Source of the DNA: Actinomycetales bacterium | GTDB lineage: Bacteria > Actinomycetota > Actinomycetes > Streptosporangiales > Streptosporangiaceae | DNA length: 64,000 nt | NCBI GenBank assembly: GCA_044507605.1 | Contig: JBIQJI010000008.1 | Span: 26,395-90,394, forward strand | Direction: 5' to 3' | In this document: positions 10,148 to 35,033 of the stretch, piece by piece | How positions within the stretch are numbered: the stretch's first letter is position 1 | Layout: each line of letters begins with the position of its first letter | Program-made: the position numbers and the translations under genes | Notes under the pieces: generated by a model | Told to the model about the DNA's origin: nothing | Seen by the model: only the letters and a program-made list of their open reading frames with translations | The model's database searches: none

Positions 10148-10174
10148 CGGCTCCCCCTCCGAGAGGGAGCCGGC
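10148..10174. terminator. Possible bidirectional hairpin between convergent EamA and ferredoxin genes
   Basis: ccggctccc ... gggagccgg forms a 9-bp stem. There is no T-tract, which is common in high-GC actinomycetes. Confidence 0.35.
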
Positions 10175-10180
10175 GGGACG

Positions 10181-10372: not shown

Positions 10373-10744
10373 AACCCTCTCCTCTACCGGTCCTGCCAGA
10401 CCACCGGCAACCGATGAACGCCCCGGCCCCTCGTGACGGTCCGCATCGGCGTCCCGGCGGGCGCACGGCCGAGCACGGACCCGGGCAACAACGGCGCGCG
10501 TTACGTCCGGTGGCGATGCGAGCCGCTCGGCAGAATCGAACGTGGCCATGCGCCCGATGAAACGCGCCACCGAATCCGGACCATCGGCGATCGTCTGGCC
10601 ATGGCGTCTCCTGCGGGATCGCCTCCTCGCGATGACTCCTTGTGCAACGTGCTGTCTGTCCACTTCCATGGAACACCATTCGGGGTCGATTCCGGTCATC
10701 GTCCCCATGCGGCATCCGGCCAAGGCATGGGGCTTGACGAACGC

Positions 10745-10991
10745 CCGAAGGCCCGCTGCCGACCGAAGGCCCGGCGAACGACGACACCCCACGGGGCCAA
10801 GGCCCGATGAGCGGCCAACGTCCCACGGCCGGCCGAAGACCTGGCGACCGACCCAGGAGCCTGGTGGGTGACCCGAGCCGGCAAGCGATCAAAGACCCCA
10901 CGGAGGCCGGCACCCCACGAGCGGCCGAAGGCCCGGCGGGTGGCGGAGGCCCGCCGTGCGGCCGAAGGTCGGGCAGGTGGTCGAAGGCTCT
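10745..10991. repeat. Degenerate dispersed/tandem motif CCGAAGGCCCG (at least 6 copies) in an apparently non-coding 636-bp gap
   Basis: Copies start at 10745, 10763, 10833 (variant), 10925, 10962 (variant) and 10981 (variant). They are often preceded by CCCCACGRGGCC. Confidence 0.55.
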
Positions 10992-11008
10992 CCGATCGGC
11001 TGGTGGGC

Positions 11009-11914: not shown

Positions 11915-12119
11915 CCGACCTCCATCCCAACCTGCCCGCCCTCGGGGCCGCACCCGGCGCCCTCCCGGCCGGCATGGCCATGAAGCGCCCGACCGGGAAC
12001 GCCCGTCCAGATGTCCCATCCTCGATGCCCCGGCCCCAAGCGCCGAACGTCGAGGCGACGCGTTCCCCGTGGCGGGGCGGGTGGTGCGTGGGCTCGGTCC
12101 TGGTCGAGAGGGCCGGGCA

Positions 12120-21016: not shown

Positions 21017-21273
21017 GGGATGGGGAGCACCATGAAACCGCCCAGGGACACACCCCGTCAAGTCACGATCACGTAAAGGCGCGCCTCCGGGTGCGGGGGC
21101 GGCCCCGGAGCGGCCCGGCCCGGCCGCGCAGCGCACTAATTGACATCTCCGCTAATATCAGCCCAAATCCCCATACAGACGGGTCGTAATTGACGATTGA
21201 TCAAGTAACTGCATACCAGGCTGCAACCTCTCTGAGATATATTTTCCCACCAGATAACGGAAGGGTGGGGCGG

Positions 21274-22161
21274 ATGTGGGGATTGCGCATCCTCGGGCTC
21301 ACGCTGCTCGTCCACTGTGTCATCGGAGGCATCGGATCGATGCTGTTCCCCGGCCCGCCCGCGTATGCGTCGGCGACCCCTGATCCCACGCCCGAAGACC
21401 TCACCGCGTCCGCCCGTCACGCACGCTGCCTGGACCAGGAGAAACGCGACGACCTCGCCCGTGCGGCCGTCATGCAGAAAGTCGCACCGCGTCTGATCGG
21501 CACCGACAAACTGAGCCGTGGTAAGGGATATATTACGTTGGAGCAATGGCTCGCCACCGACGAACGGACATTCGACCGGCTGTGCTCCGCGCTGCTCGGC
21601 CTTGACGACAAAACCAAAGACGATTCCGGCGACGGGACCTGGTCGACGCTGCTCCAGACGATCGCGGCGGTGGTGTTCGGCTCCGCGGGCACGCTGTTCG
21701 TGTCGTCGTGGCAGGGGCGTAAGGCGCTGGGCAAGGAGCTGCGGACCGCCTCGAATCACTTCCACCACGCCTTCTCCGTCTATCTGCGCGGCTGGGAAAC
21801 CACCGGATTCACCGATGCCGACGCGCTGGCCGACGCTCGCTCGCAGCTGCGGAACAAGCTGGGCGACGTCCAGGATGCCAAGCCGCACTGGCGGCGGCCC
21901 CGCCAGCTCCTGGAGCTCCTCGACGCCCCCGCCCTCGAGGAAGGCGACAACGCCCTGTGGACGGAGCAGACGCAGGACGAGCGCCATCGGCACGCGACCG
22001 AGATGAGGGATCGGCTGGAGATGTTCCGGCGGGACGTGGACAAGCTGGGCATCGCGCTCCAGCATCCCCGGCCGCTGAGTTTCCGTCGCTCCGCCGCGAG
22101 CTACCAGGCCGCGCTTCGGGACGGCCTCCTCAAGGCCGCGCCGACGGACCCCGCCGCCTGA
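21274..22161 (+). CDS. Hypothetical signal-anchored / two-TM membrane protein (cassette gene 1)
   Basis: ATG 21274 is preceded by GGAAGGG. Signal-like MWGLRILGLTLLVHCVIGGIGSMLFPGPPAYASA and a second TM WSTLLQTIAAVVFGSAGTLFVSSW, followed by a charged helical tail. The stop lies 1 nt before the next start. The ORF track begins at TTG 21190. Confidence 0.6.
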   Translation: MWGLRILGLTLLVHCVIGGIGSMLFPGPPAYASATPDPTPEDLTASARHARCLDQEKRDDLARAAVMQKVAPRLIGTDKLSRGKGYITLEQWLATDERTFDRLCSALLGLDDKTKDDSGDGTWSTLLQTIAAVVFGSAGTLFVSSWQGRKALGKELRTASNHFHHAFSVYLRGWETTGFTDADALADARSQLRNKLGDVQDAKPHWRRPRQLLELLDAPALEEGDNALWTEQTQDERHRHATEMRDRLEMFRRDVDKLGIALQHPRPLSFRRSAASYQAALRDGLLKAAPTDPAA

Positions 22162-22162
22162 C

Positions 22163-23296
22163 ATGTCGAACCCCCCGACTCCCAGCCTGCTCCCCGGCCC
22201 GCAGCCGGGCGCGGCGACCCACCGCAACCCGTACCTGCCTCCCGGGCAGGAGGAGGCGACGGCGAACGACCACGTCGCGATGCTGCGGCCGTGGCGCAAC
22301 CGGCTGCACCACGACTTCTACGTCGTCCTGGCGGCCGTCGCGGAGAGCCACGAGAGGTTCCGCGGCAGGTTCAGGGATCCGAACGTCGTGCTGGAGCAGG
22401 GGCAGCTCATCACGGTGACCGGTGCCCGGGGCACGGGAAAGAGCGCCTTGCTCCACCGGTTCGCGGGGCTGCTGGCCTACTCCAGCCCGAAATACTCGCG
22501 AGGCGATCCGGCGGACGTGTCCGGCGGGCTCCCCGGCCGGCTGGACGGCCAGATGCCGCTGATAGCGGACCTGAGCGAGGCCCACGCCCTGAACGTTGTC
22601 CCGCAGGACGCGACGCCGCTGGACGAAGGGCGGACGAAGGAGCAGAACATCTACGAAGCCGTGATCGCCGACCTCAAGAGCCAGCGCAAGCTCACCGAGG
22701 CCGAGGCCGACCGGCTGCGGACGGACGCCATCATCATCGACCAGCGGTGCCGGGCGGACGTGCCCCGTGGCTACGAGAAGCTGGCGGACGCCCTGGAGGA
22801 CAAGAACGCCGTCCTCGTGGTGCTGCTGCCGCCCATCGACAAGGTCGGCGAGTTGAACTTCTACCTGCGCATGGCCAGGAAGCGCCTGGTCTTCATGGCC
22901 GAAAGCGTCGCGCTGGCCGACCGTGCCGACCTGGCGAGCATGGTCAAGGGCATGCATTACTCCGCGTTCACCCATCTGCGCACCGGGATGCTGACGGCCG
23001 CGGACATCAGGCGGTTCATCGCCGCCCGGCAGAACCGCGCGGCTCAGGACGGCCGCCCGTGGGTGACGGTCACCGACGAGGTGATCGAGCAACTGTGCGT
23101 GCGCTTCGCCGGCCAGACGGTGGAGCAGCTCCGCGGCGCCCTCTGCGAGCTGTGCCACGTGGCGATCACGGGCTCGGGCGTCGTCGACATCGCGCTGTAC
23201 AGGGAGTACTCGCGCCAGGAGTTCTTCCTGGCCAGCGCGATGCGCAGGGTCCGGCGCGACGGCGGGCGCAAAGGCCCGAAGGGCACGAAGGGGTAG
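22163..23296 (+). CDS. Hypothetical P-loop NTPase (cassette gene 2)
   Basis: Walker A GARGTGKS (22421-22444). Walker-B-like AVLVVLLPPID. No further family is recognisable. Confidence 0.7.
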   Translation: MSNPPTPSLLPGPQPGAATHRNPYLPPGQEEATANDHVAMLRPWRNRLHHDFYVVLAAVAESHERFRGRFRDPNVVLEQGQLITVTGARGTGKSALLHRFAGLLAYSSPKYSRGDPADVSGGLPGRLDGQMPLIADLSEAHALNVVPQDATPLDEGRTKEQNIYEAVIADLKSQRKLTEAEADRLRTDAIIIDQRCRADVPRGYEKLADALEDKNAVLVVLLPPIDKVGELNFYLRMARKRLVFMAESVALADRADLASMVKGMHYSAFTHLRTGMLTAADIRRFIAARQNRAAQDGRPWVTVTDEVIEQLCVRFAGQTVEQLRGALCELCHVAITGSGVVDIALYREYSRQEFFLASAMRRVRRDGGRKGPKGTKG

Positions 23297-23308
23297 AGAG
23301 GCGACCGT

Positions 23309-25567
23309 ATGCCGCGCATGCAGAATCCGTTTCCGGTGACACCCGCCCTGCGTCTGTCCCCTTTCCAGCTGACCACCCCGCCCGGCGCGGACTTCACGGT
23401 CGTGACGTCCGCGACCGAGGACGCCCGCGACTATGTGGAGAGCTACCTCGACGAGGCGGACCGATGGGAGGCCGAACGCGCGGCCGGGGCCGAGCCGCCG
23501 CCGCTGTCGGGCAGGGTGCTCGGGGTGTCCGGCGACTACGGGTCCGGGAAGACGCACCAGCTCATCGACATCGCGCGGCTCGTCCACGAGTCCGGTGCCC
23601 GGGAGCACGGCGCGAAGGTCCGGCTGCTCCTGCTGGACGCGCCTCGCGGCGGCATCGCTGCGGCCTACCGCGACCAGCTCATCGGCCAGTTCGACCCGGA
23701 CGCCATCGTCGAGCTGCTCAAGGACTACCACGGCGACACGGTCGCGGAGGGGGTGGAGAACGTACCGTTCCCGCCCGGCAGCGAAGCGGAGGACGGCAAG
23801 CGGGCCATCGCCCGCGGCCTGCGGCAGGGCGAGCTCGACCCCGAGGGCGTCACCCAGGCGTACCTGCTGTCGGCAAGCGACATCGAGGCGCGGCTGGCCA
23901 CACGGCTCAGGGGCGTCGCCGAACACTGGGAGTTCGCCAAGGCGCTCACGCTGATGCTCGACCCACCGTCGCGGGACGCCGCCTGGCGCTGGTTCCGCGG
24001 TGACGCCCCGGGGAAGGAGCTGCGCGACAACGGGATCACGGCGTCGATCGCCACCGAATCGATGGCCTACGACGCGCTCGCCGTCCTCGCGTTCCTGCAC
24101 GGGCGCCGGGGCCAACGCATCGTCTTCATCGTCGACGAGTTCGAGAAGCTGCTGGAGGACACGGAAGTCGGACGGCTCGCCTCGCTCCAGGCGTTCGAAC
24201 GGCTCGCAGGCGTCTTCATCGACGCCGGCTGCCTGCTCGTCTTCTCCGCGTCGAAACAGGCCATCGGCCGGCTGTCCGGCGGCCTGCGGGAGCGCACGTA
24301 TCACGTCTCGCTGGCGCCGCTCGACCGCGCGGAGACCGAGCGGCTGATCGAGGGGCACCTGTCCGGGCTGGTGTCGCGCGGGGACGAGGTCTTTCCCGAG
24401 CCCACGGTGACATGTGTCGGCGACCTCGGCGAGGGCAACCCCCGCCGCGTCATCTCGCTGTGCCGGGGCGGGTTCCGGCTGGCCGCCGCCAGGCCGGGGG
24501 GTGACGCGGAGGTGACGGTGACCGAGGACAACGTCCGCGCCTTCGCCCACCAGGAGTACGAGCGGTTCTCCCTGCCCGAGGCCGTGAGCGCCGCGCGCGA
24601 CATCCTGCAGGCCGACGGCTGGCCGCTGCCGGCCGACGACCACCTAGGGTCGCGCCCGCCGGTGGACTTCTGGGTCGACGCCGACGACGCAGTCATCGCG
24701 GTCATCGTGACCGACTCGCTGCTGAGCAGGCAGGACGCCGAAACGCTCTTCGGGCGCGTGAGCGACGCCGAGCTGCGCGCCTCACCACAGCCGTGTCAGA
24801 CCATCATCGTGGTCAACGGGCACGTCTCGCGGTCCGCTCGGGACGCCGTGGTCCAGCGCATCGGGCGCAACCCGGTGATCCATCAGGGCACGGGGTTCGG
24901 CAACGACTTCCGCGCGGCGCTCCTCGACGCCCACCGGCGGCTGCACAACCAGGCCCGGCGCGACGACCTCGCCAAAATCCGCATCACGGTGGAGCAGATC
25001 CTCCGGCAGCAGGAACGGACGCAGCACGCGATCGACAGGCTGCGACGGCGGAGCGGCGCGCGGACCGCCGCGGAGGGGGCCGACGCCGGACCCGGCCCGT
25101 CCCAGGCCGGGTCGGCGCTGCCGGGGCACGTCGACGACGACGCCGTGGCAGGGCTGCCCCGCGAGGTCCTCGACGAGTTCCGGCGCGCTCGGGACGAGAT
25201 CCCGGTCGACCGCGACATCGAGCACCCGTTCGACCACCTGTTCCGGCAGCCCGGCGACGGCGAGCGGACCGCTTCGCCCCGCCGGGCCATGCGCCGGGAC
25301 CGGTTCGAGGACATCGGCGTCATCTGGACGACTGAGCAGCTGGTGCTCGCGTTCCGCGACGCCGTCGCGCGCTGGTACGCGGCCGGGCCGCAGGACGGCA
25401 CCGGGAGAGGCGACGCCGAGCGGGAGGAGGAGCTGCGCCACATCTGCCGGATGTACGAGTCGGCCGCCGAGGACGTGCTGCCGCTTCTGTTCAGGAGGCA
25501 TGCCTACACCGGCACCGGCCCGCTGGAGCAACTGGGTTCGCGCGTGCGTGAGCTGCTGTTACGGTGA
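23309..25567 (+). CDS. Hypothetical AAA+/ORC-like P-loop NTPase with extra C-terminal domains (cassette gene 3)
   Basis: Walker [10 protein letters not shown] (23531-23557). Walker [13 protein letters not shown] (24116-24151). Sensor-1-like CLLVFSAS. Lid motif [16 protein letters not shown]. About 300 further residues of unknown fold. Confidence 0.75.
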
Positions 25568-27048: not shown

Positions 27049-28107
27049 TTACGCGGTCCACGCTCGGCCGTTCTCGCCGGCGGTGAATATTTCGCGGGCG
27101 CCGGTCAGCAGGTGCCGGAAACGCAGATCGGCGCGCCTGACCGCGTGTTGATGAAGAGTCACCCCCAGTGCCAGGCCGGGAAGCGATGGCAGCACATGCA
27201 CATAAATAGCGCCTTGCTGCACATCAAGGACCAGCGACTCGATGGTTTCACAGGCCATCGCGTGTAACGCGTGCGCGACCTGGGCGAGCCCTTTGGGCAA
27301 CGACCGGCCGAGCCGGCAATAATGGTCGCGCTGCGTCTGGTACGCCTGTGCGTCGGTCAGCCAGCCGCCGAACGGCTCCCCGAACCACGGCTGCTCGGCC
27401 AGCTCCGCATCGGCGAGGACATCGGCCGAGTACAGCAGCCGCGGCCCCTGGAAAAAGGCGACGTAATGCAGGTCCTCGACGTTCAGCGCCGCCTCGCACA
27501 AGGCCGCCATGCGGTCCCGGGCGTCGCCGGCGAGCCCGTCCGCGTGCACGGTCACGTGGGCGGTCCTCGTCACCGGTGGCGGGAGGGGGTCCCCCCAGCC
27601 GCCGGGATACTCCTCGTCCAGGCGGTAGTGGCGGCGGATGTCGGTGACCGCGTAGCAGGCCTGCTTGTCCATTTCGTCGACCATCTCGCGGACGGCGGGC
27701 CCGGCCGCGGCGGAGCCGCCCCGCCTGAGCGCGGTCAGGTACTCGTCGGGGCGCACCCTGCCGCAGTGGACGCCCTCGGCGCCGGTCGTCACCACGGTGC
27801 GCATCAGCTCTCCACTGCGCAGCTCCGCCAGGTCCCGGTCGAACATCTCGGCCTGGATGACGAGCTGGCGCAACGCCGCCTCACACTCGTGCGGCGCGGG
27901 CAGTTCTCCGGACGACGGCGGCCGGAGGAAAAACTCGCGGAACCCGTTGTAGAAGTAGCCGGTGAGATCCGCCACCCCGCTGTCGATCAGCCGCTCCCGG
28001 CAGATCCCCTGGTGTGAGGTGTAATCGCGATAGGCCACGATCTCCTGGTGATCCTCCCAGCCCTCGCCGCCGGGGTCGCTGATCGGCACCGTGCCGATGT
28101 CGGGCAT
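27049..28107 (-). CDS. Hypothetical cytoplasmic protein, co-directional partner of the STAND gene
   Basis: High-GC3 ORF 64 nt downstream of the 28172 stop. No motif is recognised. The C-terminal segment IESLVLDVQQGAIYVHVLPSLPGLALGVTL is faintly Roadblock/LC7-like. Confidence 0.65.
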   Translation of the reverse strand: MPDIGTVPISDPGGEGWEDHQEIVAYRDYTSHQGICRERLIDSGVADLTGYFYNGFREFFLRPPSSGELPAPHECEAALRQLVIQAEMFDRDLAELRSGELMRTVVTTGAEGVHCGRVRPDEYLTALRRGGSAAAGPAVREMVDEMDKQACYAVTDIRRHYRLDEEYPGGWGDPLPPPVTRTAHVTVHADGLAGDARDRMAALCEAALNVEDLHYVAFFQGPRLLYSADVLADAELAEQPWFGEPFGGWLTDAQAYQTQRDHYCRLGRSLPKGLAQVAHALHAMACETIESLVLDVQQGAIYVHVLPSLPGLALGVTLHQHAVRRADLRFRHLLTGAREIFTAGENGRAWTA

Positions 28108-28171: not shown

Positions 28172-31100
28172 TCAGTATCCGGGCACCTCGATCTCGATGT
28201 CGCGCCGAACGGGCTTGGCCTCGGCGCCGCCGGGCGTGCCGTGGCGTGGGCGCGCCTGCGGCGGCTTCGAGTCGAGCTGCGACAGGGTGTCCCGCAGGTT
28301 CTCGCGCGCGATGCGCAGATCGCGCGGATCGCGGATCTCGGCGGCGCCGAACAGCCACTGCAGTCGTTCGCAGGCGACCTGCTCCAGGTCGCGCGCGGCC
28401 CGCGGGCCGTTCACGAGCAGCTCGGTGTTGGCGTGGTTGACGGTGGCGGTGAGCGTGACGGGATGCCACTCGCCGAGCCGCTCGGCCAGCCCGCGCCGGC
28501 TCTCCTCGCCGTGCCGCAGCGCGTCGTACCGCCGGCCCTCCTTGCGCAGGTAGACCGCGAGGTTCGCCTGGCACATGAAGGTGAACGCGTGGTCGCCGAG
28601 GATGGCGCGGAACCGTTCGAGGCAGTGGCTCGCGTGCTCGACGGCCCCGGAGTAGTCGTCCTGCGCGTGCAGGTCGGCGGCCACGCTGGCGAGGCAGCGC
28701 AGCGTGAGGATGTCGTCGTCGCCGAGCAGGCGGCGATACTGCTCCAGCACCTCGGCATTACGGCTCCGCGACTCCGCCACCTTGCCGAGCCCGCGCTCGG
28801 TGACCGCGAGGCCGTACTCGATGCGCAACCGGTCGAGGCTGCGCGTGCCGAAGGGTTCCTTCTCCCGCCGCACCAGCCGGGCGAGAGCGCGTCTCAGCCA
28901 CAGGTGCGCCTCTTCGTACTCGCCGAGGCAGCGCAGGGTGCCGGCCATGTTGACGACGGTCCACCAGGCGTCGTCGTCGTCTTCGCCGGCCACCTGCCGA
29001 GTGCGTTCGAACCGCTCCCGCGCCTGCTTCAGGGCCGCGGTGTAGTCGCCGTTGAGGTGCATCGAGGCGGCGAGGTTGTTGAGCGCCCGGCCCGTCATGC
29101 GGTGGTCGGCCCCCAGGGCCTCGCGCAGGTTCTTGACGGCCCGGTCGTCCCAGCCGAACGCCTCCTGGAAGGCGCCGCGGGCCCGCAGCACGATGGCGTA
29201 GCGCGACATCGTGGCCCACAGCTGCGGGTGCCGGTCGTGCAGGATGCGCCGGTGCCAGTGCCACGCCGTGCGGATGTGGGTGAGCGCCTGGTCGTACGCG
29301 CCGAGTTTGCGGCAGGCCTCGGCGAGCTCCATGAGCAGGTCGACCTTGACCAGCAGCCTGCGCGCGAGGGCGTCATCGGGCTGCTCCGGCCGCCTGAGCA
29401 GCGCGTCGGCGTCGGGCTCCCAGCTCCGCGCGCACGAGTCACCGATCTGCCGGGCCCGCTCCCAGGCGGTCTTGTCGGCCACCTCGACAAGGCGGCGGAC
29501 CTGGTCGACGATCCATCGACGGACCGCCGGGTCGGTGCTCGCCCCGGCGTAGTCCGCGTCGATGTGCACGCTGCTCTCCATGACGTCCTGGTCCCATACC
29601 GCAGCCTGCTCCGACCCCGCCGGGGGGCGTGTCTGGGCCGGGCGGTGCGCCGCGAGCACGCGGTAGATCGCGGTCCGCTCCGTCTCGGCCTGCTCGGCGG
29701 TCATGTCGGCCCGGACGAACTCCGCGATGACACGATGCATCTTCAGCCGCCCGCCGCGAGCGAAGGAGACGGCGGCCAGGCCGAACCGGTCGATGGCCCA
29801 CAGCACGGCGTCGACCAGCACCGGGTAGTGGAAACCGACGCCGTGATCGGCGAGCTCGTCGCACATCGCCCGGGAGTTCAACCGGTCGACCTCGACGCCG
29901 TCGGGCGACAGGAACGAGCACATGCGCAGCACCCGCCGACCCGCTTCGCCGCCGGGGCCGGCGAGCAGCCGCTCCATCGCCAGCCGCACCGTCGCCTGGT
30001 ACACCGGCACCTGGTGCACCGGCGGATGGACCGGGGCGGCCCGCCCCGCGGGCTGACGCCTTCTCACGGAGCCGGCCTCTTGCCGGAATCTGGTCACGAA
30101 TTCGTCGACCGTCTTCCCCGCCTGGGCGGCCAGCAGCTCGTTGTCCTCGCGCAGCCCGCTCAGCCGGTCGAGCACCCACCCCGCGGCGAGCTCGATGGCG
30201 AGCGGATAGCCCTCCACCGTGCCGGCCAGCAGCTCGGCGGCGGAGTCGGGGATGAGCTCCCGGGGAAACGTGATGCCGAGGTGCGGCCAGGTCTGCTGCT
30301 TGTACCGGATCAGCTCCAGGCTCTCGGCCGTGGTCAGCGGCCTGACCTCGATGTGACGAGCGCGCTCGCTGGGCTCGACCTCGCGGGCGGTGATCACGAC
30401 GTCACCGGTGCCCTCACGGGGGATCAGGCCGTCGAGCGCGCGCAGATCCTCGACGTTGTCGTAGACCAGCAGCCAGCGCATCTCGCCGTCGTGTTTCAGC
30501 CTGTCGAGCACGGTGTCGACGAGGTCGGTGCCCCTGGGCAGCTCCAGCCGCGCGGCGAGCCCGCCGAGCCCGGCACGGACGGTCTGCTCCGTCTCGGCCG
30601 CCACCCACCACACCACGTCGTACGCGCCGGCGTAGCGGTGGGCGTATTCGAGGGCGATCTGGCTCTTGCCGACTCCCGCCACGCCGCGCAGGGTGGCCCA
30701 GCGGACCGAGCCGCCATCGCCGGTCAAAAAGTCGCGCAGCTCCTGGATCACCGCGTCGCGGCCGACGAACGACGGGTTGCTGCCCGGCAGCCGCTCGATG
30801 TCGGGTGGCCGGGGGAACCTGCGTCTGCCGGTGGGCGGGAAGTCGCCGGACCGCCCGGGCGATGGCGGCCCGCCGATGCGCAGCCCTTGGTACAGCCGGT
30901 TGCGGGCGTCGCCTTCGGGCAGGTCGGTCAGGTCGAGCTCGTCCAGGCCGTCGGGCGGATCGGGGAAGCCGGCGCGGTCGACCCGCACGGCCAGCACCTT
31001 CGCACGCTGGATCAGGTCGGCGAGCCGCCGTTTCAGCCGCCGGTCGAGCCCGGGCGGGGAGACGAGCAGGACGGCGGTGTGCGGGTCGTTCGCCACCCAG

Positions 31101-32134
31101 GCGAATCCGGCGACGGCGATCTCCTCGACCTGTACGCCGGCGCGCCCGACCTGTTCGGCGATCCACTCGGCCCAGGCCTCGTAGCGGGGGGTGTGGACCA
31201 CGAGCACGCGGTCGATCGCGGAGACCCGGCCGTCGGTGAGCACCTCGACGAGCCGCTCGCACGCCTCTCGGACACCGCCCGGCCCCCCCGTCGGCTCCTG
31301 GAGCACCGCGGGGACGTCGGAGAAGGAGGACGCCTCGTAGGGCATCTGAGGGAGGCCGGGGGCATCGCCGGAGGCGCCGGCCGGCCCGGCGATGGGGCCG
31401 AACCGGCGCAGGGCCAGGTCGCGCGGCTCGTCGACGTTCGGGACGGACCCGTCGACCCGCATGGCCAGCGGGACGACGCGCGGCGGGTGCGGGCCGGCGG
31501 CGCGGATGTCGGCGGCGAACCCGGCGGGCTCGTCGACGTAGTCGCGGGTCAGCGAGAAACAGACGACCGCCTGGTCGCCGAGCCCCGCGATCCAGGCCGT
31601 CACATCGTCCGACCAGCCCACCGGCGCATCGATAAGTACGTAGTCATATCCGGACGTTTGCAAATATGACCGAAATGTCGTTATCCATCCCGAATCAACG
31701 GCCAAGCGCAGCGATTCGGACGAGGATCGGGACGCCGAGCCGTAGGTCAGCAGATCGATGGCGCCACGGTCGGTCACGTCGGTGAGATTGAGCCGGATCG
31801 GGTCGGACCGGAGTTCGAGCGCCGCGGGATCGCGATCGTTGCGCTCGATCAGGTCGGACAGCCCGCGGCCGCGAGGATCGGGCTCGTCGGGCAGATAGCG
31901 CCGCAGATAGCGATGGAAGTCGCGGGACCGTGGCTCGCAATCGACGACCAGGACCCGCATGCCCGCCCTGGCCAAAATGACCGCCGCGTTGGCGACGGTG
32001 GTCGTGCGGCCGACGCCGCCCCGGGCCGAACAGAAAATCAGGACCCGGCCAGGACCGCTGGAATCGGCTCCCATCGTCGCTCCCATCGCGTCATCGCGCA
32101 CCCGCGCCGGTCGAGGTGGGCGGAAATGCCGCAA
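28172..32134 (-). CDS. FxsT-like STAND protein: ParA/MinD-like (KGGVGR-variant) domain + TIR-like domain + NB-ARC NTPase + TPR array
   Basis: - aa 28-230: ParA-like (VLIFCSARGGVGRTTTVANAAVILARAGMRVLVVDCEP ... DYVLIDAP).
- aa about 307-390: TIR-like (VLVVHTPRYEAWAEWIAEQVGRAGVQVEE...AVLLVSPP).
- aa about 455-660: NB-ARC (FVGRDAVIQELRDFL...LRGVAGVGKSQIALEYAHRYAGAYDVVWWVAAE...WLLVYDNVED...GYPLAIELAAG).
- aa about 940-1250: TPR (LNNLAASMHLNGDYTAALKQ...).
- The first codon at 32134 is TTG. ATG alternatives lie at 32086 and 32074. Confidence 0.85.
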   Translation of the reverse strand: MRHFRPPRPARVRDDAMGATMGADSSGPGRVLIFCSARGGVGRTTTVANAAVILARAGMRVLVVDCEPRSRDFHRYLRRYLPDEPDPRGRGLSDLIERNDRDPAALELRSDPIRLNLTDVTDRGAIDLLTYGSASRSSSESLRLAVDSGWITTFRSYLQTSGYDYVLIDAPVGWSDDVTAWIAGLGDQAVVCFSLTRDYVDEPAGFAADIRAAGPHPPRVVPLAMRVDGSVPNVDEPRDLALRRFGPIAGPAGASGDAPGLPQMPYEASSFSDVPAVLQEPTGGPGGVREACERLVEVLTDGRVSAIDRVLVVHTPRYEAWAEWIAEQVGRAGVQVEEIAVAGFAWVANDPHTAVLLVSPPGLDRRLKRRLADLIQRAKVLAVRVDRAGFPDPPDGLDELDLTDLPEGDARNRLYQGLRIGGPPSPGRSGDFPPTGRRRFPRPPDIERLPGSNPSFVGRDAVIQELRDFLTGDGGSVRWATLRGVAGVGKSQIALEYAHRYAGAYDVVWWVAAETEQTVRAGLGGLAARLELPRGTDLVDTVLDRLKHDGEMRWLLVYDNVEDLRALDGLIPREGTGDVVITAREVEPSERARHIEVRPLTTAESLELIRYKQQTWPHLGITFPRELIPDSAAELLAGTVEGYPLAIELAAGWVLDRLSGLREDNELLAAQAGKTVDEFVTRFRQEAGSVRRRQPAGRAAPVHPPVHQVPVYQATVRLAMERLLAGPGGEAGRRVLRMCSFLSPDGVEVDRLNSRAMCDELADHGVGFHYPVLVDAVLWAIDRFGLAAVSFARGGRLKMHRVIAEFVRADMTAEQAETERTAIYRVLAAHRPAQTRPPAGSEQAAVWDQDVMESSVHIDADYAGASTDPAVRRWIVDQVRRLVEVADKTAWERARQIGDSCARSWEPDADALLRRPEQPDDALARRLLVKVDLLMELAEACRKLGAYDQALTHIRTAWHWHRRILHDRHPQLWATMSRYAIVLRARGAFQEAFGWDDRAVKNLREALGADHRMTGRALNNLAASMHLNGDYTAALKQARERFERTRQVAGEDDDDAWWTVVNMAGTLRCLGEYEEAHLWLRRALARLVRREKEPFGTRSLDRLRIEYGLAVTERGLGKVAESRSRNAEVLEQYRRLLGDDDILTLRCLASVAADLHAQDDYSGAVEHASHCLERFRAILGDHAFTFMCQANLAVYLRKEGRRYDALRHGEESRRGLAERLGEWHPVTLTATVNHANTELLVNGPRAARDLEQVACERLQWLFGAAEIRDPRDLRIARENLRDTLSQLDSKPPQARPRHGTPGGAEAKPVRRDIEIEVPGY

Positions 32135-32259
32135 TCACCTGACGTCACGGGCCGCGGGCCTGGTGAGCCCCGGCTGAAACGCAAGCGACCCGAGGCCCTC
32201 CTCCGGGTAGGACCCGTTCTCAGAGTAGGAGGGCCGCCCGGGGCGGTCAACGAATGTTT

Positions 32260-32442
32260 TCATTTATCTTGGGGCGGCTGACTCGACTGCACCAGTGGTG
32301 CCGCCGAACCACATTCCAGGTCGTGCAGGATCCGGTCGAGCGCGCCGTTCAGCGCCCGTTTCGACAGTCCGGCGGTTCCGTACAGCCCGATACCCGCGAC
32401 ATCGACTATGTCGGACTCTAGATCGTATCTAGGGGAACCCAT
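32260..32442 (-). CDS. Candidate 60-aa FxSxx-COOH-like precursor peptide (variant C-terminus)
   Basis: ATG start, directly upstream of and co-directional with the FxsT-like gene. The leader-like pattern SDIVDVAGIGL...LSKRALNGALDRIL resembles my recollection of FxsA leaders. The C-terminus is ...PLVQSSQPPQDK, with VQSSQ where FxSxx would be and 5 extra residues. GC3 is lower than in neighbouring genes, with rare codons AGA, CTA and ATA. Confidence 0.45.
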   Translation of the reverse strand: MGSPRYDLESDIVDVAGIGLYGTAGLSKRALNGALDRILHDLECGSAAPLVQSSQPPQDK

Positions 32443-32610
32443 ACCGATGACCTGCCTTTTCCCCGACGTGAAACTCCCGCCGAAAGCATGCGCATCCGGC
32501 TAATGCATGCCATGCGGCATTAACCTATCATCGATCGCGGACCTATCACCATTGCACCGCTCCCCCGGTCACCCGCCGTTCCTCCCTGCCAGAGAAAGGG
32601 GTGGCACTAT

Positions 32611-34014
32611 ATGCCGCATTTGGGAAGGCGCGGCGAGAACGAACCCGGGCGCGCTCGGCCCGGCCCTCCCCCACCCCGCCACGGCCTTCGCCAGCAGGTG
32701 TTCGACGACCTCGCCCGGGGCGGCGGCGGAGCCGAGGCGGCGCGGCTGCTCGCCACCGCCGAGTTCAGCAAGCATCTGCTGCTGCTCCGGCTCGTCGTCG
32801 CCGAGGCGGAGACGGTCCGGCACCCGCAGGCGGCGGAGACCGCCGACGCCTACGACACGCTGGCCGCGCTGCAACGGCTGGCGCCGGGCCCGGTCGAGGC
32901 GGTGATCCGCTACCCGGCGGTGGGCGTCTGGGCGTACCGGACCATCCAGGCGCTGCGCGGCCCGCGACCCCTCGACGCGCGTCCCGCCCGGCTCACCGCG
33001 ATCGCCGCCAGCGCGGCGATCAGCGGCCGGACGTCGGCCACGCTGCGGGTGCACGCCGACGGTCCCGTCGTCGCCCTGCCCGGCGTCGGGCTGGCCGTGC
33101 TGCCGGGGTCCGCGACCGGCGGGACGGTCGCGCTGCGCACCGGACCCGACGGCGCCCTGCTGTCCTCGGGCGGCGCACGCGTCCACCTGCCCGACGAGCC
33201 GGACACCGACGGCGAAGGCTGGTCGGGCACGCGCGTCCTGTCGCTGCCGCACGACGGACGGCCCGATCCGCTGCGGCTCGCCGTCGACGACCTCGACCCG
33301 TACCGGTTCCCCAGCGAGCTCGTCCACGGGCGGCTGTCGGCGGAGCAGTCCCGCCGCTTCACCGGGGCGGTCGCCGCCGGATGGGAGCTGCTGGCCAGGC
33401 ACCACGCGGAGGTGACCGCCGAGGTGCCGGCCGTCATCACCACGCTCACCCCGCTCACGGCACCGCGCGGAGCCATCGTCAGCGCGTCGTCGGGAGCGGC
33501 GTTCGGCTGCGTCGCCCTCTCCGAGCCGCCCGACGACCGCGCCGCCGCCGTCACGTTCGCGCACGAGCTGCGGCACGCCAAGCTGTCGGCCCTGATGGAC
33601 CTGTTCCCGCTGGTCCGGGCGGCGCCGCACGAGCTGTTCTACGCGCCCTGGCGCGAGGACCCGCGGCCGCTGTCCGGCCTGCTCCACGGCGCGTACGCCT
33701 TCGCCGGGGTCGCCGCCTTCTGGGGCCGGCAGCGGCACATCGAGACCAGCGGGCGGGCGGTGCTGGAGGCCAACGTCCGGTTCGCCCGATGGCGCGACGC
33801 CGCGCTGGGGGTGGCGCGGTTCCTGGCCGGGTCCGATCGGCTGACCGATGCCGGGCGGCGCTTCGCCACCGGCCTGCTGGCGGAACTGGAGGAATGGCAC
33901 CGCGCGGACGTGCCCGCCGAGGCCGCCGCCCGGGCCCGCGACGAGGCGGCCCGGCACCTGGCCCGCTGGACGAGCCGGCACGGGCCGCCGCCGAACGCGC
34001 CGTACCCCGGCTGA
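32611..34014 (+). CDS. HExxH-motif domain protein (aKG-HExxH peptide beta-hydroxylase / FxsC-like family)
   Basis: HELRH at 33562-33576 within FAHELRHAKLSAL. N-terminal LLATAEFSKHLLLLRLVV and overall length fit the stand-alone HEXXH-domain family seen in FxSxx loci. Divergent from the peptide gene. Confidence 0.7.
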   Translation: MPHLGRRGENEPGRARPGPPPPRHGLRQQVFDDLARGGGGAEAARLLATAEFSKHLLLLRLVVAEAETVRHPQAAETADAYDTLAALQRLAPGPVEAVIRYPAVGVWAYRTIQALRGPRPLDARPARLTAIAASAAISGRTSATLRVHADGPVVALPGVGLAVLPGSATGGTVALRTGPDGALLSSGGARVHLPDEPDTDGEGWSGTRVLSLPHDGRPDPLRLAVDDLDPYRFPSELVHGRLSAEQSRRFTGAVAAGWELLARHHAEVTAEVPAVITTLTPLTAPRGAIVSASSGAAFGCVALSEPPDDRAAAVTFAHELRHAKLSALMDLFPLVRAAPHELFYAPWREDPRPLSGLLHGAYAFAGVAAFWGRQRHIETSGRAVLEANVRFARWRDAALGVARFLAGSDRLTDAGRRFATGLLAELEEWHRADVPAEAAARARDEAARHLARWTSRHGPPPNAPYPG

Positions 34015-34049: not shown

Positions 34050-34670
34050 TCAGGAGACGGGGCCGGTCGAGTTCACCTGGGCGGCGCGGTGCACGACGTG
34101 GTCGACCATGCCGTACTCCTTGGCCTCCTCGGCGGTGAACCAGCGGTCGCGGTCCCAGTCCCGCTCGACCTGCTCGCGGCTCTGGCCCGTGTGGTGGGCG
34201 ATGCGCTCGGCCGTGGTGCGCTTGACGTACGTCATCTGCTCGGCCTGGATCTTGATGTCGCTGGCGGTGCCGCCGAGGCCGCCGGAGGGCTGGTGCATCA
34301 TGATGCGGGCGTGGCGCAGGGCGTAGCGGCGGCCGGGGGTGCCGGCGCACAGCAGCACCTGGGCCATCGAAGCGGCCAGGCCGATGGTCACGGTGCTGAT
34401 CGGGTTGGGCAGGAACTGCATGACGTCGTACATCGCCATGCCTGCGGTCACCGACCCGCCGGGCGAGTTGATGTAGAGGAAGATGTCGCGCCGGTCGTCC
34501 TCGGCCGACAGCAGCAGGAGCTGGCCGCACACGCGGTTGGCGATCTCGTCGTCGATCTCGCTGCCGATGAAGATGATGCGCTCGCTCAGCAGCCGCTCGT
34601 AGACGGACTCCTGGGGCCTGCGGCCGATCTCGGTGACGCGGCTGTGCGGGGTGAACGGGCTGGGTTCCAC
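34050..34670 (-). CDS. clpP: ATP-dependent Clp protease proteolytic subunit (solitary paralog)
   Basis: YERLLSERIIFIGSEIDD, YINSPGGSVTAGMAMYD, catalytic Ser in GLAASMA, His in IMMHQP, and Asp in DRDRWFTAEEAKEYGMVD. Confidence 0.9.
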   Translation of the reverse strand: MEPSPFTPHSRVTEIGRRPQESVYERLLSERIIFIGSEIDDEIANRVCGQLLLLSAEDDRRDIFLYINSPGGSVTAGMAMYDVMQFLPNPISTVTIGLAASMAQVLLCAGTPGRRYALRHARIMMHQPSGGLGGTASDIKIQAEQMTYVKRTTAERIAHHTGQSREQVERDWDRDRWFTAEEAKEYGMVDHVVHRAAQVNSTGPVS

Positions 34671-34685
34671 GGGCCCTCCTGACGT

Positions 34686-34718
34686 ACGTTCTGTACATAA
34701 TCGCTAGAACGTACAGAA
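34686..34718. promoter_or_regulatory. Interleaved inverted repeats overlapping a -10-like CATAAT upstream of the antitoxin gene
   Basis: ACGTTCT (34686-92) pairs with AGAACGT (34706-12). TTCTGTAC (34689-96) pairs with GTACAGAA (34711-18). CATAAT lies at 34696-34701, 33 nt before ATG 34734. Confidence 0.45.
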
Positions 34719-34733
34719 TGCTAGCATGGTCGC

Positions 34734-35033
34734 ATGACACGTGAGATCCCGGTGACGCAGGCACGCGCCGAGCTGGCCGAACTGGTCAACCGCGTGGCCT
34801 ACAGCGGGGAGCGGGTCGTGCTCACCCGCCATGGCCGGCCGCTCGCCGCGCTCGTGTCCTCCGACGACCTCGAACTGCTGGAGGCGCTGGCCGAGCAGCG
34901 CATCGCCGTGACCTCCATCGGCCCCGGCGAGCAGGGCGGCCCGCCCGCCCGCGACGACGCCCCGCTGCGCATCGTCGCCGAGCACCGCCCGAGCGGCTTC
35001 GAGCGCCCCGGCGGCTTCGGCATCGGCACCTGA
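34734..35033 (+). CDS. Type II toxin-antitoxin system Phd/YefM family antitoxin (no cognate toxin adjacent)
   Basis: MTREIPVTQARAELAELVNRVAYSGERVVLTRHGRPLAALVSSDDLELLE is the canonical Phd/YefM N-terminal domain. Confidence 0.8.
   Translation: MTREIPVTQARAELAELVNRVAYSGERVVLTRHGRPLAALVSSDDLELLEALAEQRIAVTSIGPGEQGGPPARDDAPLRIVAEHRPSGFERPGGFGIGT

What the first reader, a model, noticed from the sequence alone, without database searches (positions are those of the whole stretch)
32260..32442. Candidate precursor peptide with FxsA-like leader but VQSSQ+PPQDK tail instead of FxSxx-COOH
- The ORF MGSPRYDLESDIVDVAGIGLYGTAGLSKRALNGALDRILHDLECGSAAPLVQSSQPPQDK starts with ATG and sits 125 nt upstream of the FxsT-like gene on the same strand.
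- Its N-terminal two thirds fit the acidic/Leu-rich leader pattern I recall for FxSxx-COOH precursors (D-h-h-D-h-x-G-h-x-L ... S-x-L-x-x-A-L-x-R-I-L).
- The position expected to be F-x-S-x-x-COOH reads V-Q-S-S-Q and is followed by five more residues.
- Loss of the aromatic residue needed for a cyclophane crosslink agrees with the absence of the radical SAM gene.
- Codon usage is atypical for this genome. AGA, CTA, ATA, AAA and GAT codons are present and GC3 is clearly lower than in neighbouring genes.
Basis: partly seen in the sequence, partly recalled or inferred. Interest (0 to 1): 0.7.

Follow-up and report, generated by a model that had tools for sequence, protein, structure and literature searches.

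The report
FxsA-type precursor peptide without its crosslink
This small gene is a real but very rare relative of the FxSxx-COOH peptide precursors of actinomycetes: its cluster has lost the crosslinking enzyme and the peptide has lost the aromatic residues that enzyme needs, while the rest of the system is kept intact. It is an instructive variant of a known system, not a new kind.

Summary
The 60-codon ORF exists as described, on the minus strand (32442→32260). Its leader is homologous to FxsA (FxSxx-COOH) precursors: a profile built only from context-defined relatives ranks it first of 949 window ORFs (24 bits, E 1.4e-6; 0 of 20,000 shuffles reach this score). It fails the curated TIGR04268 model.

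The gene sits where fxsA sits in one sub-type of fxs cluster, here called type 2:
- upstream of a long FxsT STAND protein with an N-terminal MinD/ParA-like domain;
- divergent from an aKG-HExxH peptide hydroxylase;
- with a conserved ~350-aa fifth gene downstream of FxsT.

FxsB, the radical-SAM cyclophane synthase, precedes the hydroxylase in 78 of 80 related loci. It is absent from all 64 kb of the window.

The nearest precursors read P-F-[F/C]-V-x-Ω-Q-S-S. This one reads A-P-L-V-Q-S-S, so the x-Ω dipeptide is deleted and the Phe residues are gone.

The only other copy known (85% identical) has all 9 substitutions in the leader and none in the last 24 residues. The hydroxylase and the STAND protein look intact. 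The trio therefore appears to be maintained, not decaying.

Low GC3 is real but is a trait of the whole family.

Kaur et al. 2020 already described rSAM-less peptide/HExxH/STAND systems with other tails. This is a new variant of a known kind, of moderate interest.

The parts
32260..32442 (-). Precursor-peptide gene (60 codons plus TGA): an FxsA-family homologue with a non-canonical tail
   Evidence: - Translation.
- Only significant FxsA-profile hit in the window.
- 85% identical homologue P0002 in the same gene context.
32311..32442 (-). Leader region (about residues 1-44): DLESDIVDVAGIGL...ALNGALDRIL, matching the family consensus LxSDLVDLsGIdL...LPDSaLa.ALRRI
   Evidence: - HMM alignments cover only this part (profile positions 9-55).
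- Alignments A3 and A5.
- All 9 substitutions against P0002 lie in residues 4-36.
32263..32334 (-). Conserved tail (residues 37-60): RILHDLECGSAAPLVQSSQPPQDK. It has no F/W/Y and keeps V-Q-S-S of the V-x-Ω-Q-S-S motif, with x-Ω deleted
   Evidence: - 24 of 24 residues identical in P0002.
- Fisher test, leader 9/36 against tail 0/24 substitutions, p=0.008.
- Alignment A5 shows V51, Q52 and S53 invariant, with a two-column gap at x-Ω.
32451..32458 (-). Shine-Dalgarno-like AAGGCAGG, 8 nt upstream of the ATG
   Evidence: Read directly from the sequence. That it functions as a ribosome-binding site is inference only.
32194..32235 (-). GC-rich stem-loop (GGCCCUCCU...AGGAGGGCC) between the peptide gene and FxsT; a possible attenuator
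   Evidence: - Folds: (-30.8 kcal/mol for the local 60 nt).
- There is no U-tract.
- It is not conserved in other type-2 loci.
- The overall z-score is only -1.7.
- Weak evidence.
28172..32134 (-). FxsT STAND protein: N-terminal MinD/ParA-like domain with degenerate Walker A (SARGGVGRTT), then NB-ARC (GVGKS), then TPR. The probable start is the ATG at 32086
   Evidence: - NF040586 556.5 bits (cutoff 300), KGGVGR-variant AAA, NB-ARC, TPR_12 and TPR_10.
- Sequence.
- Its nearest relatives are the type-2 FxsT proteins.
32611..34014 (+). aKG-HExxH-type peptide beta-hydroxylase (FxsC-like), transcribed divergently from the peptide gene
   Evidence: - TIGR04267 163.8 bits (cutoff 40).
- All 42 invariant family columns are kept, including H318-E319-x-x-H322.
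- PDB matches 22nu_A (E 4.7e-29) and ChlH 8s5f.
- It is not an outlier in divergence.
27049..28107 (-). Conserved ~350-aa protein of unknown function downstream of FxsT, the fifth gene of type-2 clusters
   Evidence: - 41% identity over 106 aa (E 4e-17) to the gene in the same position in L084.
- Same position in the loci of P0005 and P0008.
- No Pfam, NCBIfam or PADLOC hit.

Best explanation
**What it is**
- The ORF is a genuine precursor-peptide gene of the FxsA (FxSxx-COOH) family.
- It belongs to the 'standalone' sub-type of fxs / peptide-processing cluster, called type 2 here. The normal layout is fxsA and a long FxsT (MinD/ParA-like + NB-ARC + TPR) plus a ~350-aa gene on one strand, with FxsB and an aKG-HExxH hydroxylase on the other.

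**What happened in this lineage**
- The FxsB three-residue-cyclophane synthase gene was lost cleanly.
- The peptide lost every aromatic residue of its core: the x-Ω dipeptide before Q-S-S was deleted and PFF became APL.
- Leader, polar tail, hydroxylase, STAND protein and fifth gene were all retained. They appear to be under purifying selection.

**Proposed mechanism (inferred, not shown)**
1. The conserved leader docks the peptide on the HExxH enzyme.
2. The enzyme uses Fe(II) and 2-oxoglutarate to beta-hydroxylate one or more residues of the linear tail. Candidates are Gln52, Gln55, Gln58, Asp59, or His40/Asp41.
3. There may also be oxidative C-terminal trimming.
4. The modified peptide then serves as a signal or ligand, or as a toxin, coupled to the TPR-STAND protein, as Kaur et al. 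proposed for this class of system.
For: **Homology of the leader**
- Context-defined type-2 profile: 24.0 bits, E 1.4e-6, first of 949 window ORFs.
- Type-1 profile: 15.8 bits, E 5e-4.
- 0 of 20,000 shuffles reach either score.

**Position and context**
- FxsT is closest to the type-2 FxsT proteins only: 391-602 bits full length, against <=228 bits for type 1.
- The closest hydroxylases, P0005, P0006 and P0008, all sit in complete type-2 clusters with rSAM and an FxSxx peptide.
- The fifth gene is conserved.
- In an NJ tree the hydroxylase nests within the type-2 clade.

**Loss of FxsB**
- No FxsB anywhere in the 64 kb.
- None in the gene list of the 85%-identical relative's contig.
- 78 of 80 related loci have FxsB.

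**Loss of the aromatic residues**
- Alignments A3 and A5.
- 70 of 71 relatives keep F/W/Y in the tail.
- FxsB-family MscB links Phe-C4 to Ser-Cβ (PMC11002830).

**Maintenance rather than decay**
- Tail identical at 24 of 24 residues, against 9 changes in 36 leader residues (p=0.008).
- The leader changes fall at family-variable positions.
- The hydroxylase keeps all invariant residues and has ordinary divergence.
- FxsT is full length with an intact NB-ARC P-loop.

**Feasibility without a cyclophane**
- Related trios of FxsA-leader peptide, aKG-HExxH and FxsT without rSAM recur in Streptomyces, Umezawaea and metagenomes.
- Kaur et al. 2020 report rSAM only with FxSxx-type tails.
- The stand-alone HExxH enzymes PflC and PosC hydroxylate Gln in linear peptides and cleave a C-terminal tetrapeptide (PMC12636437).
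Against: - The peptide fails the curated TIGR04268 model (no hit at E<=10). It also lacks the precomputed PF27839 hit that 52 of 55 relatives carry.
- A profile of the 21 most dissimilar family members gives no signal.
- Only two sequences of this variant exist among 1.84 billion representatives.
- Conservation therefore rests on one comparison, at protein level only. No DNA was available for dN/dS.
- The one characterised rSAM-associated HExxH enzyme (ChlH) needs a pre-installed cyclophane (PMC12636437). Activity on a linear Fxs peptide is therefore an assumption.
- Bootstrap support for nesting within type 2 is weak (34-43%).
- Expression, translation, modification and the role of the STAND protein are all untested.
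- FxsB could exist elsewhere in the genome, which could not be searched.
Confidence: 0.6

Rival explanations
1. Decaying relic. After FxsB was lost the cluster became useless, and the peptide gene, though homologous to fxsA, is drifting towards pseudogene status. The unusual tail and poor codon usage would be symptoms of relaxed selection.
For: - rSAM is absent.
- The core motif is disrupted.
- The curated models fail.
- GC3 is only 0.67.
- The variant is extremely rare.
- ChlH-type hydroxylation depends on a cyclophane.
Against: - The tail is 100% conserved over 24 residues in a lineage whose leader has diverged by 25% and whose hydroxylase has diverged by 10%.
- The loss predates the split of the two lineages, yet the peptide and hydroxylase genes are complete in both, and FxsT is full length in the window. 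Its gene runs off the relative's contig after 609 residues.
- Low GC3 is shared by canonical fxsA genes.
- The hydroxylase keeps all invariant residues and shows no accelerated divergence.
- Stable rSAM-less trios exist elsewhere.
Confidence: 0.2
2. The peptide is still crosslinked, by an FxsB-type or other radical-SAM enzyme encoded elsewhere in the genome. His40 (H-D-L) could be the aromatic partner, since His-containing triceptide motifs are known.
For: - Genomes often carry several fxs clusters, for example two back to back in L003, L006, L007, L008, L012 and L049.
- His-Cβ cyclophanes exist (HaaB, YhhB, ScaB; PMC11002830).
- His40 and Asp41 are conserved in both copies.
- Only 64 kb of the genome could be examined.
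Against: - In 78 of 80 loci FxsB is encoded immediately next to the hydroxylase.
- The residues aligned with the crosslink motif of the nearest relatives are precisely the ones that were lost.
- H-D-L lies in the part aligned to the leader/linker (R-I-x-R-E-L), where relatives have no conserved aromatic residue.
Confidence: 0.08
3. Chance ORF in a divergent promoter region. It is not translated, and the resemblance to FxsA leaders is fortuitous.
For: - The ORF is short, with atypical third-position composition.
- There is no hit in the curated libraries.
- No promoter-like site was found.
Against: - Profile E-values of 1.4e-6 and 5e-4, with no shuffle reaching the observed scores.
- The position and strand are identical to fxsA in all type-2 loci.
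- An 85% homologue keeps the reading frame and length in an independent metagenome.
- GC1 and GC2 (0.70 and 0.47) follow the coding pattern.
- An SD-like sequence lies 8 nt upstream.
Confidence: 0.04

Closest known systems
FxSxx-COOH system (Haft & Basu 2011): NCBIfam TIGR04268 precursor, TIGR04269 FxsB, TIGR04267 HExxH, NF040586 FxsT. The cyclophane chemistry was shown for the FxsB-family enzyme MscB (Nguyen et al., Nat Chem 2020, as cited in PMC11002830)
   Same: - Homologous leader.
- Same hydroxylase family (163.8 bits).
- Same FxsT family (556.5 bits).
- Same gene order and orientation as the type-2 sub-type.
- The tail keeps the V...Q-S-S residues of the motif.
   Different: - No FxsB gene.
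- No aromatic residue in the core, because x-Ω is deleted.
- The peptide fails TIGR04268.
- The product cannot be a cyclophane (triceptide) made by a cluster-encoded enzyme.
'Peptide-processing systems' of Kaur, Burroughs, Iyer & Aravind 2020 (eLife, PMC7159879), in particular the standalone actinobacterial form with an AP-ATPase carrying an inactive MinD/ParA-like domain
   Same: - HExxH protein, small rapidly diverging protein with a better-conserved C-terminal peptide, and AP-ATPase/TPR.
- The MinD/ParA-like domain has both Walker-A lysines replaced (SARGGVGRTT).
- rSAM is present only when the tail is FxSxx, which is consistent with its absence here.
   Different: - The tail (…APLVQSSQPPQDK) fits none of their four types (FxSxx, RxD, acidic, FtsH-associated).
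- It derives from the FxSxx type by loss and does not belong to the RxD or acidic lineages.
- They took the HExxH protein for a peptidase. It is now known to be an aKG-dependent hydroxylase.
rSAM-less trios found here in Streptomyces, Umezawaea and a metagenome (L087, L088, L069, L086): an FxsA-leader peptide, a 585-643-aa aKG-HExxH enzyme, and a convergent FxsT with a SAV_2336 N-terminal domain. Two of the four (P0161 in L086, P0163 in L088) have RxD-type tails
   Same: - FxsA-type leader.
- HExxH hydroxylase and FxsT without any radical-SAM gene.
- Polar, non-FxSxx tails.
   Different: - Different gene order: the peptide is co-directional with and directly upstream of the hydroxylase.
- Longer hydroxylase.
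- Different FxsT N-terminus: SAV_2336 type, not MinD/ParA-like.
- The hydroxylases form a separate deep branch, so the window's rSAM-less state arose independently.
Stand-alone aKG-HExxH RiPP enzymes PflC and PosC (Ouyang et al. 2025, PMC12636437), and ChlH/ChlBH (Morishita et al., Nat Chem 2024)
   Same: - Same enzyme superfamily.
- PflC and PosC act on linear, leader-bearing peptides rich in Gln, without a radical-SAM partner.
   Different: - Distant sequences: ChlH matches only over the HExxH core, E 2e-8.
- Different precursor families.
- ChlH requires a pre-formed cyclophane.
- No ARMD-like cleavage motif is present here.

Membership tests
FxSxx-COOH cyclophane-containing RiPP peptide (TIGR04268 / PF27839) | Scores at or above the curated HMM cutoff (TIGR04268, 28 bits) | tested here: not met
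   - No hit at E<=10 for the window peptide or for P0002.
- Relatives score 38.9-41.2 bits.
- The precomputed PF27839 hit is absent for P0001 and P0002 and present in 52 of 55 relatives.
- PF27839 is not in the local Pfam copy.
FxSxx-COOH cyclophane-containing RiPP peptide (TIGR04268 / PF27839) | Homologous acidic/Leu-rich leader (…L-x-S-D-L-V-D-L-s-G-I-d-L…A-L-R-R-I…) | tested here: met
   - Own profiles: 24.0 bits, E 1.4e-6 (type-2, context-defined); 15.8 bits, E 5e-4 (type 1).
- 0 of 20,000 shuffles reach these scores.
- Alignments.
FxSxx-COOH cyclophane-containing RiPP peptide (TIGR04268 / PF27839) | Aromatic Ω-x-S motif near the C-terminus (F/Y/H-x-S) | tested here: not met
   - The x-Ω columns are gapped and Q-S-S is retained.
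- There is no F/W/Y in the last 39 residues.
FxSxx-COOH cyclophane-containing RiPP peptide (TIGR04268 / PF27839) | Encoded next to an FxsB radical SAM/SPASM maturase (TIGR04269) | tested here: not met
   - No FxsB in 64 kb.
- 78 of 80 related loci have it.
FxSxx-COOH cyclophane-containing RiPP peptide (TIGR04268 / PF27839) | Encoded next to an HExxH protein and an FxsT TPR protein | tested here: met
   TIGR04267 163.8 bits (cutoff 40) and NF040586 556.5 bits (cutoff 300).
FxSxx-COOH cyclophane-containing RiPP peptide (TIGR04268 / PF27839) | The mature product contains a three-residue cyclophane | not testable with these tools
   This needs MS/NMR of the native or heterologously produced peptide. 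It is predicted to be absent.
Standalone peptide-processing system (Kaur et al. 2020) | HExxH protein, plus a small diverging protein whose C-terminal peptide is the better-conserved part | tested here: met
   -.
- Tail 24 of 24 identical, against 27 of 36 in the leader.
- This rests on only two sequences.
Standalone peptide-processing system (Kaur et al. 2020) | [quoted passage not shown] | tested here: met
   - KGGVGR-variant AAA (50.5 bits), NB-ARC and TPR.
- The Walker A reads SARGGVGRTT.
- That the domain is inactive is inferred from the sequence.
Standalone peptide-processing system (Kaur et al. 2020) | The tail belongs to one of the four described types (FxSxx, RxD, acidic, FtsH-associated) | tested here: not met
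   The tail …APLVQSSQPPQDK has no FxSxx motif, no C-terminal RxD, and no run of four or more acidic residues.
aKG-HExxH-type peptide beta-hydroxylase (TIGR04267), for the neighbouring gene | HMM above cutoff, HExxH motif and family-invariant residues present | tested here: met
   - 163.8 bits against a cutoff of 40.
- H318-E319-x-x-H322 and 39 further invariant columns are kept.
- PDB 22nu_A, E 4.7e-29.
aKG-HExxH-type peptide beta-hydroxylase (TIGR04267), for the neighbouring gene | Fe(II)/2-oxoglutarate-dependent hydroxylation of this peptide | not testable with these tools
   This needs in vitro or in vivo reconstitution.

The most novel reading that the evidence does not exclude
The cluster is a working minimal Fxs system and a natural knock-out of the cyclophane step. 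In this reading the hydroxylase has been retargeted to a linear, aromatic-free tail (Q-S-S-Q-P-P-Q-D-K), producing a fifth, undescribed tail type of hydroxylated peptide. The MinD/ParA-like NB-ARC-TPR STAND protein senses or deploys that peptide. If so, the conserved functional core of all Fxs / peptide-processing systems would be the leader-peptide/HExxH/STAND trio, with the cyclophane as a dispensable decoration.
Probability: 0.35. Interest if true: 0.5.

Novelty: new variant of a known kind. Interest (0 to 1): 0.38.

Why it matters
- The biological role of the widespread actinobacterial FxSxx-COOH systems is unknown. That covers the substrate of their HExxH hydroxylase and the job of the FxsT STAND protein.
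- This cluster shows which parts are kept when the cyclophane synthase is lost. The leader, a polar tail, the hydroxylase, the STAND protein and a fifth gene all persist. Every aromatic residue of the core disappears together with FxsB.
- That is clean comparative support for two ideas:
  - the aromatic residues are there for FxsB;
  - the peptide/hydroxylase/STAND trio can be a unit of function on its own.
- It also offers a simple substrate/enzyme pair for asking what an Fxs-type HExxH enzyme does to a linear peptide.
- The value is limited. Only two sequences of the variant are known, and rSAM-less relatives with other tails have been in the literature since 2020.

Tried and rejected
- **Curated models.** NCBIfam and Pfam scans of the peptide found nothing. 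PF27839 proved to be absent from the local Pfam copy, so that test was uninformative here.
- **DNA of the 85% homologue, wanted for dN/dS.**
  - The look-up of encoding contigs returned no DNA.
  - A metagenome scan with its neighbouring hydroxylase P0004 found no relative.
  - A degenerate DNA pattern for APLVQSSQPPQ found nothing.
- **Exhaustive profile search** of 1.84 billion representatives with the two-sequence alignment. It found only the peptide's own cluster and two long proteins with multiple short matched stretches (presumably spurious), and no intermediates.
- **Circularity control on my FxsA profile.**
  - A first control used the 21 members least similar to the query. It gave no signal, but it is biased against the query.
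  - I replaced it with context-defined and type-1-only profiles.
- **FxsB remnants.** A permissive tblastn around 32100-33000 and across the window gave only noise.
- **Defence-system reading.** PADLOC gives only a P-loop match for FxsT.
- **Attenuator reading of the hairpin at 32194-32235.** It is the strongest of nine loci but is not conserved, and the z-score is only -1.7. I kept it as a side note.
- **Promoter scan.** It found nothing.
- **Organism name.** It could not be recovered.
- **Logan contigs L001 and L002.** They are the same strain (99.97% identical) and add no independent evidence.
- **L090's second small ORF.** I considered it as a possible analogue and rejected it, because it is a DVIDGI repeat.
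- **Accelerated evolution of the hydroxylase.** Not seen.
Full report
**1. The observation**

The ORF at 32260-32442 lies on the minus strand. This ATG is the first possible start after the upstream in-frame stop. An AAGGCAGG lies 8 nt upstream.

The window is 71.8% G+C. The ORF has GC1/GC2/GC3 of 0.70/0.47/0.67, while the flanking genes have GC3 of 0.92-0.94. Twenty of its 60 codons end in A or T, against 5.1% in eleven neighbouring genes (p ~1e-11). The rare codons AGA, CTA, ATA, AAA and GAT are all there.

The gap to the downstream gene is 125 nt if that gene starts at its first possible codon (TTG 32134). Homologues align only from residue ~26-31, so ATG 32086 is the more likely start.

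**2. The neighbours**

| Coordinates | Gene | Evidence |
|---|---|---|
| 28172-32134 (-) | FxsT, 1,320 aa | NF040586, 556.5 bits against cutoff 300 |
| 32611-34014 (+) | aKG-HExxH peptide beta-hydroxylase | TIGR04267, 163.8 bits against cutoff 40 |
| 27049-28107 (-) | ~350-aa protein, function unknown | homologous to the gene in the same position in L084 |

- FxsT carries an N-terminal MinD/ParA-like 'KGGVGR-variant' ATPase domain. Its Walker A reads SARGGVGRTT, with both lysines replaced. An NB-ARC domain (GVGKS) and TPR repeats follow.
- The hydroxylase is transcribed divergently, 168 bp from the peptide start. It keeps H318-E319-x-x-H322 and every other invariant column of a 29-sequence family alignment. 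It matches PDB 22nu_A (E 4.7e-29) and ChlH 8s5f.
- No FxsB or other credible radical-SAM gene exists anywhere in the 64 kb.

**3. Is the ORF an fxsA?**

The curated models say no. TIGR04268 gives no hit even at E<=10, while relatives score 39-41 bits. The precomputed PF27839 annotation is missing for this peptide and its one close homologue, but present in 52 of 55 relatives.

Homology is nevertheless clear. I fetched 80 genomic loci around hydroxylase homologues and found 71 FxsA-like small ORFs in them. Profile results against all 949 six-frame ORFs of the window:

| Profile | Sequences | Rank of the ORF in the window | Score | E-value | Shuffles reaching it |
|---|---|---|---|---|---|
| All FxsA-like ORFs | 71 | only significant hit | 20.4 bits | 1.8e-5 | 0 of 20,000 |
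| Type 2, defined by genomic context only | 7 | first | 24.0 bits | 1.4e-6 | 0 of 20,000 |
| Type 1 only | 62 | first | 15.8 bits | 5e-4 | 0 of 20,000 |
| 47 members with a non-significant phmmer match to the peptide | 47 | first | 8.2 bits | 0.11 | 11 of 20,000 |
| 21 least similar members | 21 | not among the top five | 1.1 bits | not significant | 1,865 of 20,000 |

- The seed for the first profile had been picked by similarity to the peptide, so I repeated the test with the other sets.
- The context-defined set consists of the small ORF between a long FxsT and FxsB.
- The last row is a control that is biased against the query.
- All alignments cover the leader only.

**4. Which kind of fxs cluster?**

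Two main layouts appear among the 80 loci.
- **Type 1 (common):** FxsB and HExxH, then a convergent ~840-aa FxsT, then fxsA.
- **Type 2 (L011, L015, L027, L036, L060, L063, L080):** a long ~1,200-aa FxsT with the MinD/ParA-like N-terminus and fxsA on one strand, with FxsB and HExxH divergent on the other.

The window belongs with type 2.
- Its FxsT matches only type-2 FxsT proteins over their full length: 391-602 bits with L011 best, against <=228 bits for type 1.
- The three closest hydroxylases outside its own species group are P0005 (51%), P0006 (50%) and P0008 (48%). All sit in complete type-2 clusters with a radical-SAM gene, an FxSxx-COOH peptide, and in two cases (P0005, P0008) a ~340-350-aa gene after FxsT.
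- The window has that fifth gene too (41% identity over 106 aa, E 4e-17).
- An NJ tree places the window enzyme and its 90% relative inside the type-2 clade, although bootstrap support is only 34-43%.

The window is therefore a type-2 cluster minus FxsB. The 168-bp divergent intergenic region holds no FxsB remnant.

**5. What happened to the core?**

The nearest precursors end as follows:
- L089: …EEPFFVQHQSSSGGTE
- L084: …GEPFCVHHQSSATAIE
- P0141: …EEPFFVEFQSSAPG
- L011: …SLSVQYQSAAASF…

The window reads …SAAPLVQSSQPPQDK.

MAFFT makes V51, Q52 and S53 invariant. It places a two-column gap in the window peptide exactly at x-Ω, where Ω is His, Phe or Tyr. The upstream PFF or PFC has become APL. 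Val51 is thus the conserved Val of V-x-Ω-Q-S-S, not a substitute for Phe.

The result is a tail with no Phe, Tyr or Trp. In loci that have FxsB, 70 of 71 precursors have at least one in the last 25 residues. The exception is L028, a MAG contig truncated where FxsB would lie. FxsB-family MscB joins Phe-C4 to Ser-Cβ (PMC11002830), so the residues that were lost are the enzyme's aromatic partners. Extensions beyond the FxSxx position are ordinary in type 2 and occur in type 1.

**6. Relic or working gene?**

Only one other copy of the variant exists in 5.8 billion clustered proteins and in an exhaustive HMMER scan of 1.84 billion representatives. It is P0002, from a JGI metagenome contig whose gene list shows:
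- the same hydroxylase (90% identical);
- the peptide;
- a downstream large gene of at least 609 residues that runs off the contig (no domain annotation on record);
- ClpP and Phd;
- no radical-SAM gene.

The loss therefore predates the split of the two lineages.

The two peptides differ at nine positions, all within residues 4-36. The last 24 residues are identical (Fisher p=0.008). Several of the changes move P0002 towards the family consensus (T16, P27, V30). The hydroxylase is not unusually divergent: its mean identity to the family is 0.452, within a range of 0.414-0.517. Low GC3 is not a sign of decay either. fxsA genes have a median GC3 of 0.80 against 0.93 for the neighbouring hydroxylase, and canonical fxsA genes in L003, L006, L007 and L080 are at 0.61-0.64.

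These points favour maintenance by selection. They rest on a single protein-level comparison, because I could not obtain DNA for dN/dS.

**7. Can such a trio work without a cyclophane?**

Yes, judging from relatives. Searching with a type-2 FxsA alignment brought up peptides with FxsA leaders and non-FxSxx tails. Their loci, L086, L087 and L088 plus L069, share one layout:
- the peptide;
- then a 585-643-aa aKG-HExxH enzyme (136-174 bits);
- then a convergent FxsT (850-912 bits where the full gene is available, in L087, L088 and L069) with a SAV_2336-type N-terminus;
- no radical-SAM gene.

Their hydroxylases form a separate deep branch, so the window's loss is independent.

This class is already in the literature. 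Kaur, Burroughs, Iyer and Aravind (eLife 2020, PMC7159879) described 'peptide-processing systems':
- They consist of a HExxH protein (then taken for a peptidase), a small diverging FxSxx-COOH-like protein and an AP-ATPase/TPR.
- There are four tail types: FxSxx, RxD, acidic and FtsH-associated.
- The radical-SAM/SPASM gene is present only with the FxSxx type.
- There is a standalone actinobacterial form whose AP-ATPase has an inactive MinD/ParA-like domain.

That last form is my type 2. The …ERID and …SRFD tails I found are their RxD type. The window's tail fits none of the four.

**8. Mechanism**

*Shown*
- Homology of the leader.
- Architecture of the cluster.
- Absence of FxsB from the window.
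- Loss of the aromatic residues.
- Conservation of the tail.
- Intact catalytic motif in the hydroxylase.

*Inferred*
- The leader docks the peptide on the HExxH enzyme.
- The enzyme hydroxylates the linear tail.
- The product is a signal, ligand or toxin coupled to the STAND protein, which is the proposal of Kaur et al.

*Precedents for action on linear peptides*
- PflC and PosC beta-hydroxylate runs of Gln and oxidatively remove a C-terminal tetrapeptide (PMC12636437). The tail here has three Gln residues and an Asp.

*Caveat*
- ChlH, the one characterised rSAM-linked member, needs a pre-formed cyclophane.

**9. Verdict**

This is a genuine FxsA-family precursor gene in a type-2 fxs cluster that has secondarily lost its cyclophane synthase and its aromatic core residues. 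It is not a member of the curated TIGR04268 equivalog. It is a new tail variant of a known kind of system. It is rare, tidy and useful as a natural experiment, but not categorically new.

Noticed in passing
L003-L082 (fxsA ORFs listed): fxsA genes as a class have markedly lower GC3 than their neighbours: median 0.80 against 0.93 for the adjacent hydroxylase, and several are at 0.61-0.64 in 70% G+C genomes. The enrichment of rare codons in the precursor gene may be a regulatory feature of the family.
   Followed up: partly
L087:8001-15069, L088:8001-14182, L069:7808-14359, L086:131-5067: A recurrent rSAM-less module: an FxsA-leader peptide with a non-FxSxx tail, a 585-643-aa aKG-HExxH enzyme, and a convergent FxsT with a SAV_2336 N-terminal domain (the L086 STAND gene is cut by the contig end and was not scanned). 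In L087 and L088 it is flanked by Trypco1/2, EAD2, VMAP and AAA_5 genes (conflict-system domains of Kaur et al. 2020). No member seems to have been characterised biochemically.
   Followed up: partly
L069:7808-8017 (+): An unannotated small ORF directly upstream of the Umezawaea hydroxylase: MSTVLDTGVADLTELPLAELRSTSESRVLDSVERLVIRIEHTHQVVMENSQKKVG (from Met15 of the 69-aa ORF). It has a weak FxsA-leader match (10.7 bits with my profile; TIGR04268 15.9 bits) and an …ENSQKKVG tail, which resembles the window's …QSSQPPQDK in being polar and rich in Ser and Gln.
   Followed up: partly
L003, L006, L007, L008, L012, L049 (about 500-12500): Two complete fxs clusters lie back to back in several Streptosporangium genomes. 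Each has its own fxsA, FxsT and HExxH gene. In four of the six loci (L003, L006, L012, L049) a second, sometimes only fragmentary, FxsB match is also present.
   Followed up: no
window 32135-32263 (-): A 42-codon ORF whose ATG overlaps the peptide's stop codon (ATGA) was called as a gene in the Logan assemblies. It spans the GC-rich hairpin, and no gene was called at that position in the 85% relative's contig. It is probably spurious.
   Followed up: partly
window 31447-31695 (-) (FxsT residues 147-229): A sub-threshold TIR_2 match (24.8 bits against a cutoff of 28) within or next to the MinD/ParA-like region of FxsT. Kaur et al. mention N-terminal TIR domains on the AP-ATPases of FxSxx-type systems.
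   Followed up: no
window 21190-25567 (+): Three co-directional genes of 323, 405 and 752 aa have only faint AAA_16, NACHT and ivWA signals, all below the Pfam cutoffs. They may form a second, uncharacterised NTPase system beside the fxs cluster.
   Followed up: no
window 34050-35033: A ClpP paralogue (34050-34670, -) and a Phd/YefM antitoxin (34734-35033, +) flank the hydroxylase. The same pair is present on the 85% relative's contig, where an MFS transporter and an HTH regulator are inserted between them and the hydroxylase.
   Followed up: no
L028:3907-4110 (+): The only other FxsA-like ORF with no aromatic residue in its tail (…ADPADPLLGGSPKGPSGSGPPPEPR). It is in an Actinomadura MAG contig that ends where FxsB would be. 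It could be a second loss, or a frameshift in the assembly.
   Followed up: no
L090:4076-4258 (-): A 60-aa ORF between fxsA and FxsT ends in a DVIDVIDGIDVIDGIEVIG repeat. It is unrelated to FxsA and probably reflects a tandem DNA repeat in the intergenic region.
   Followed up: no
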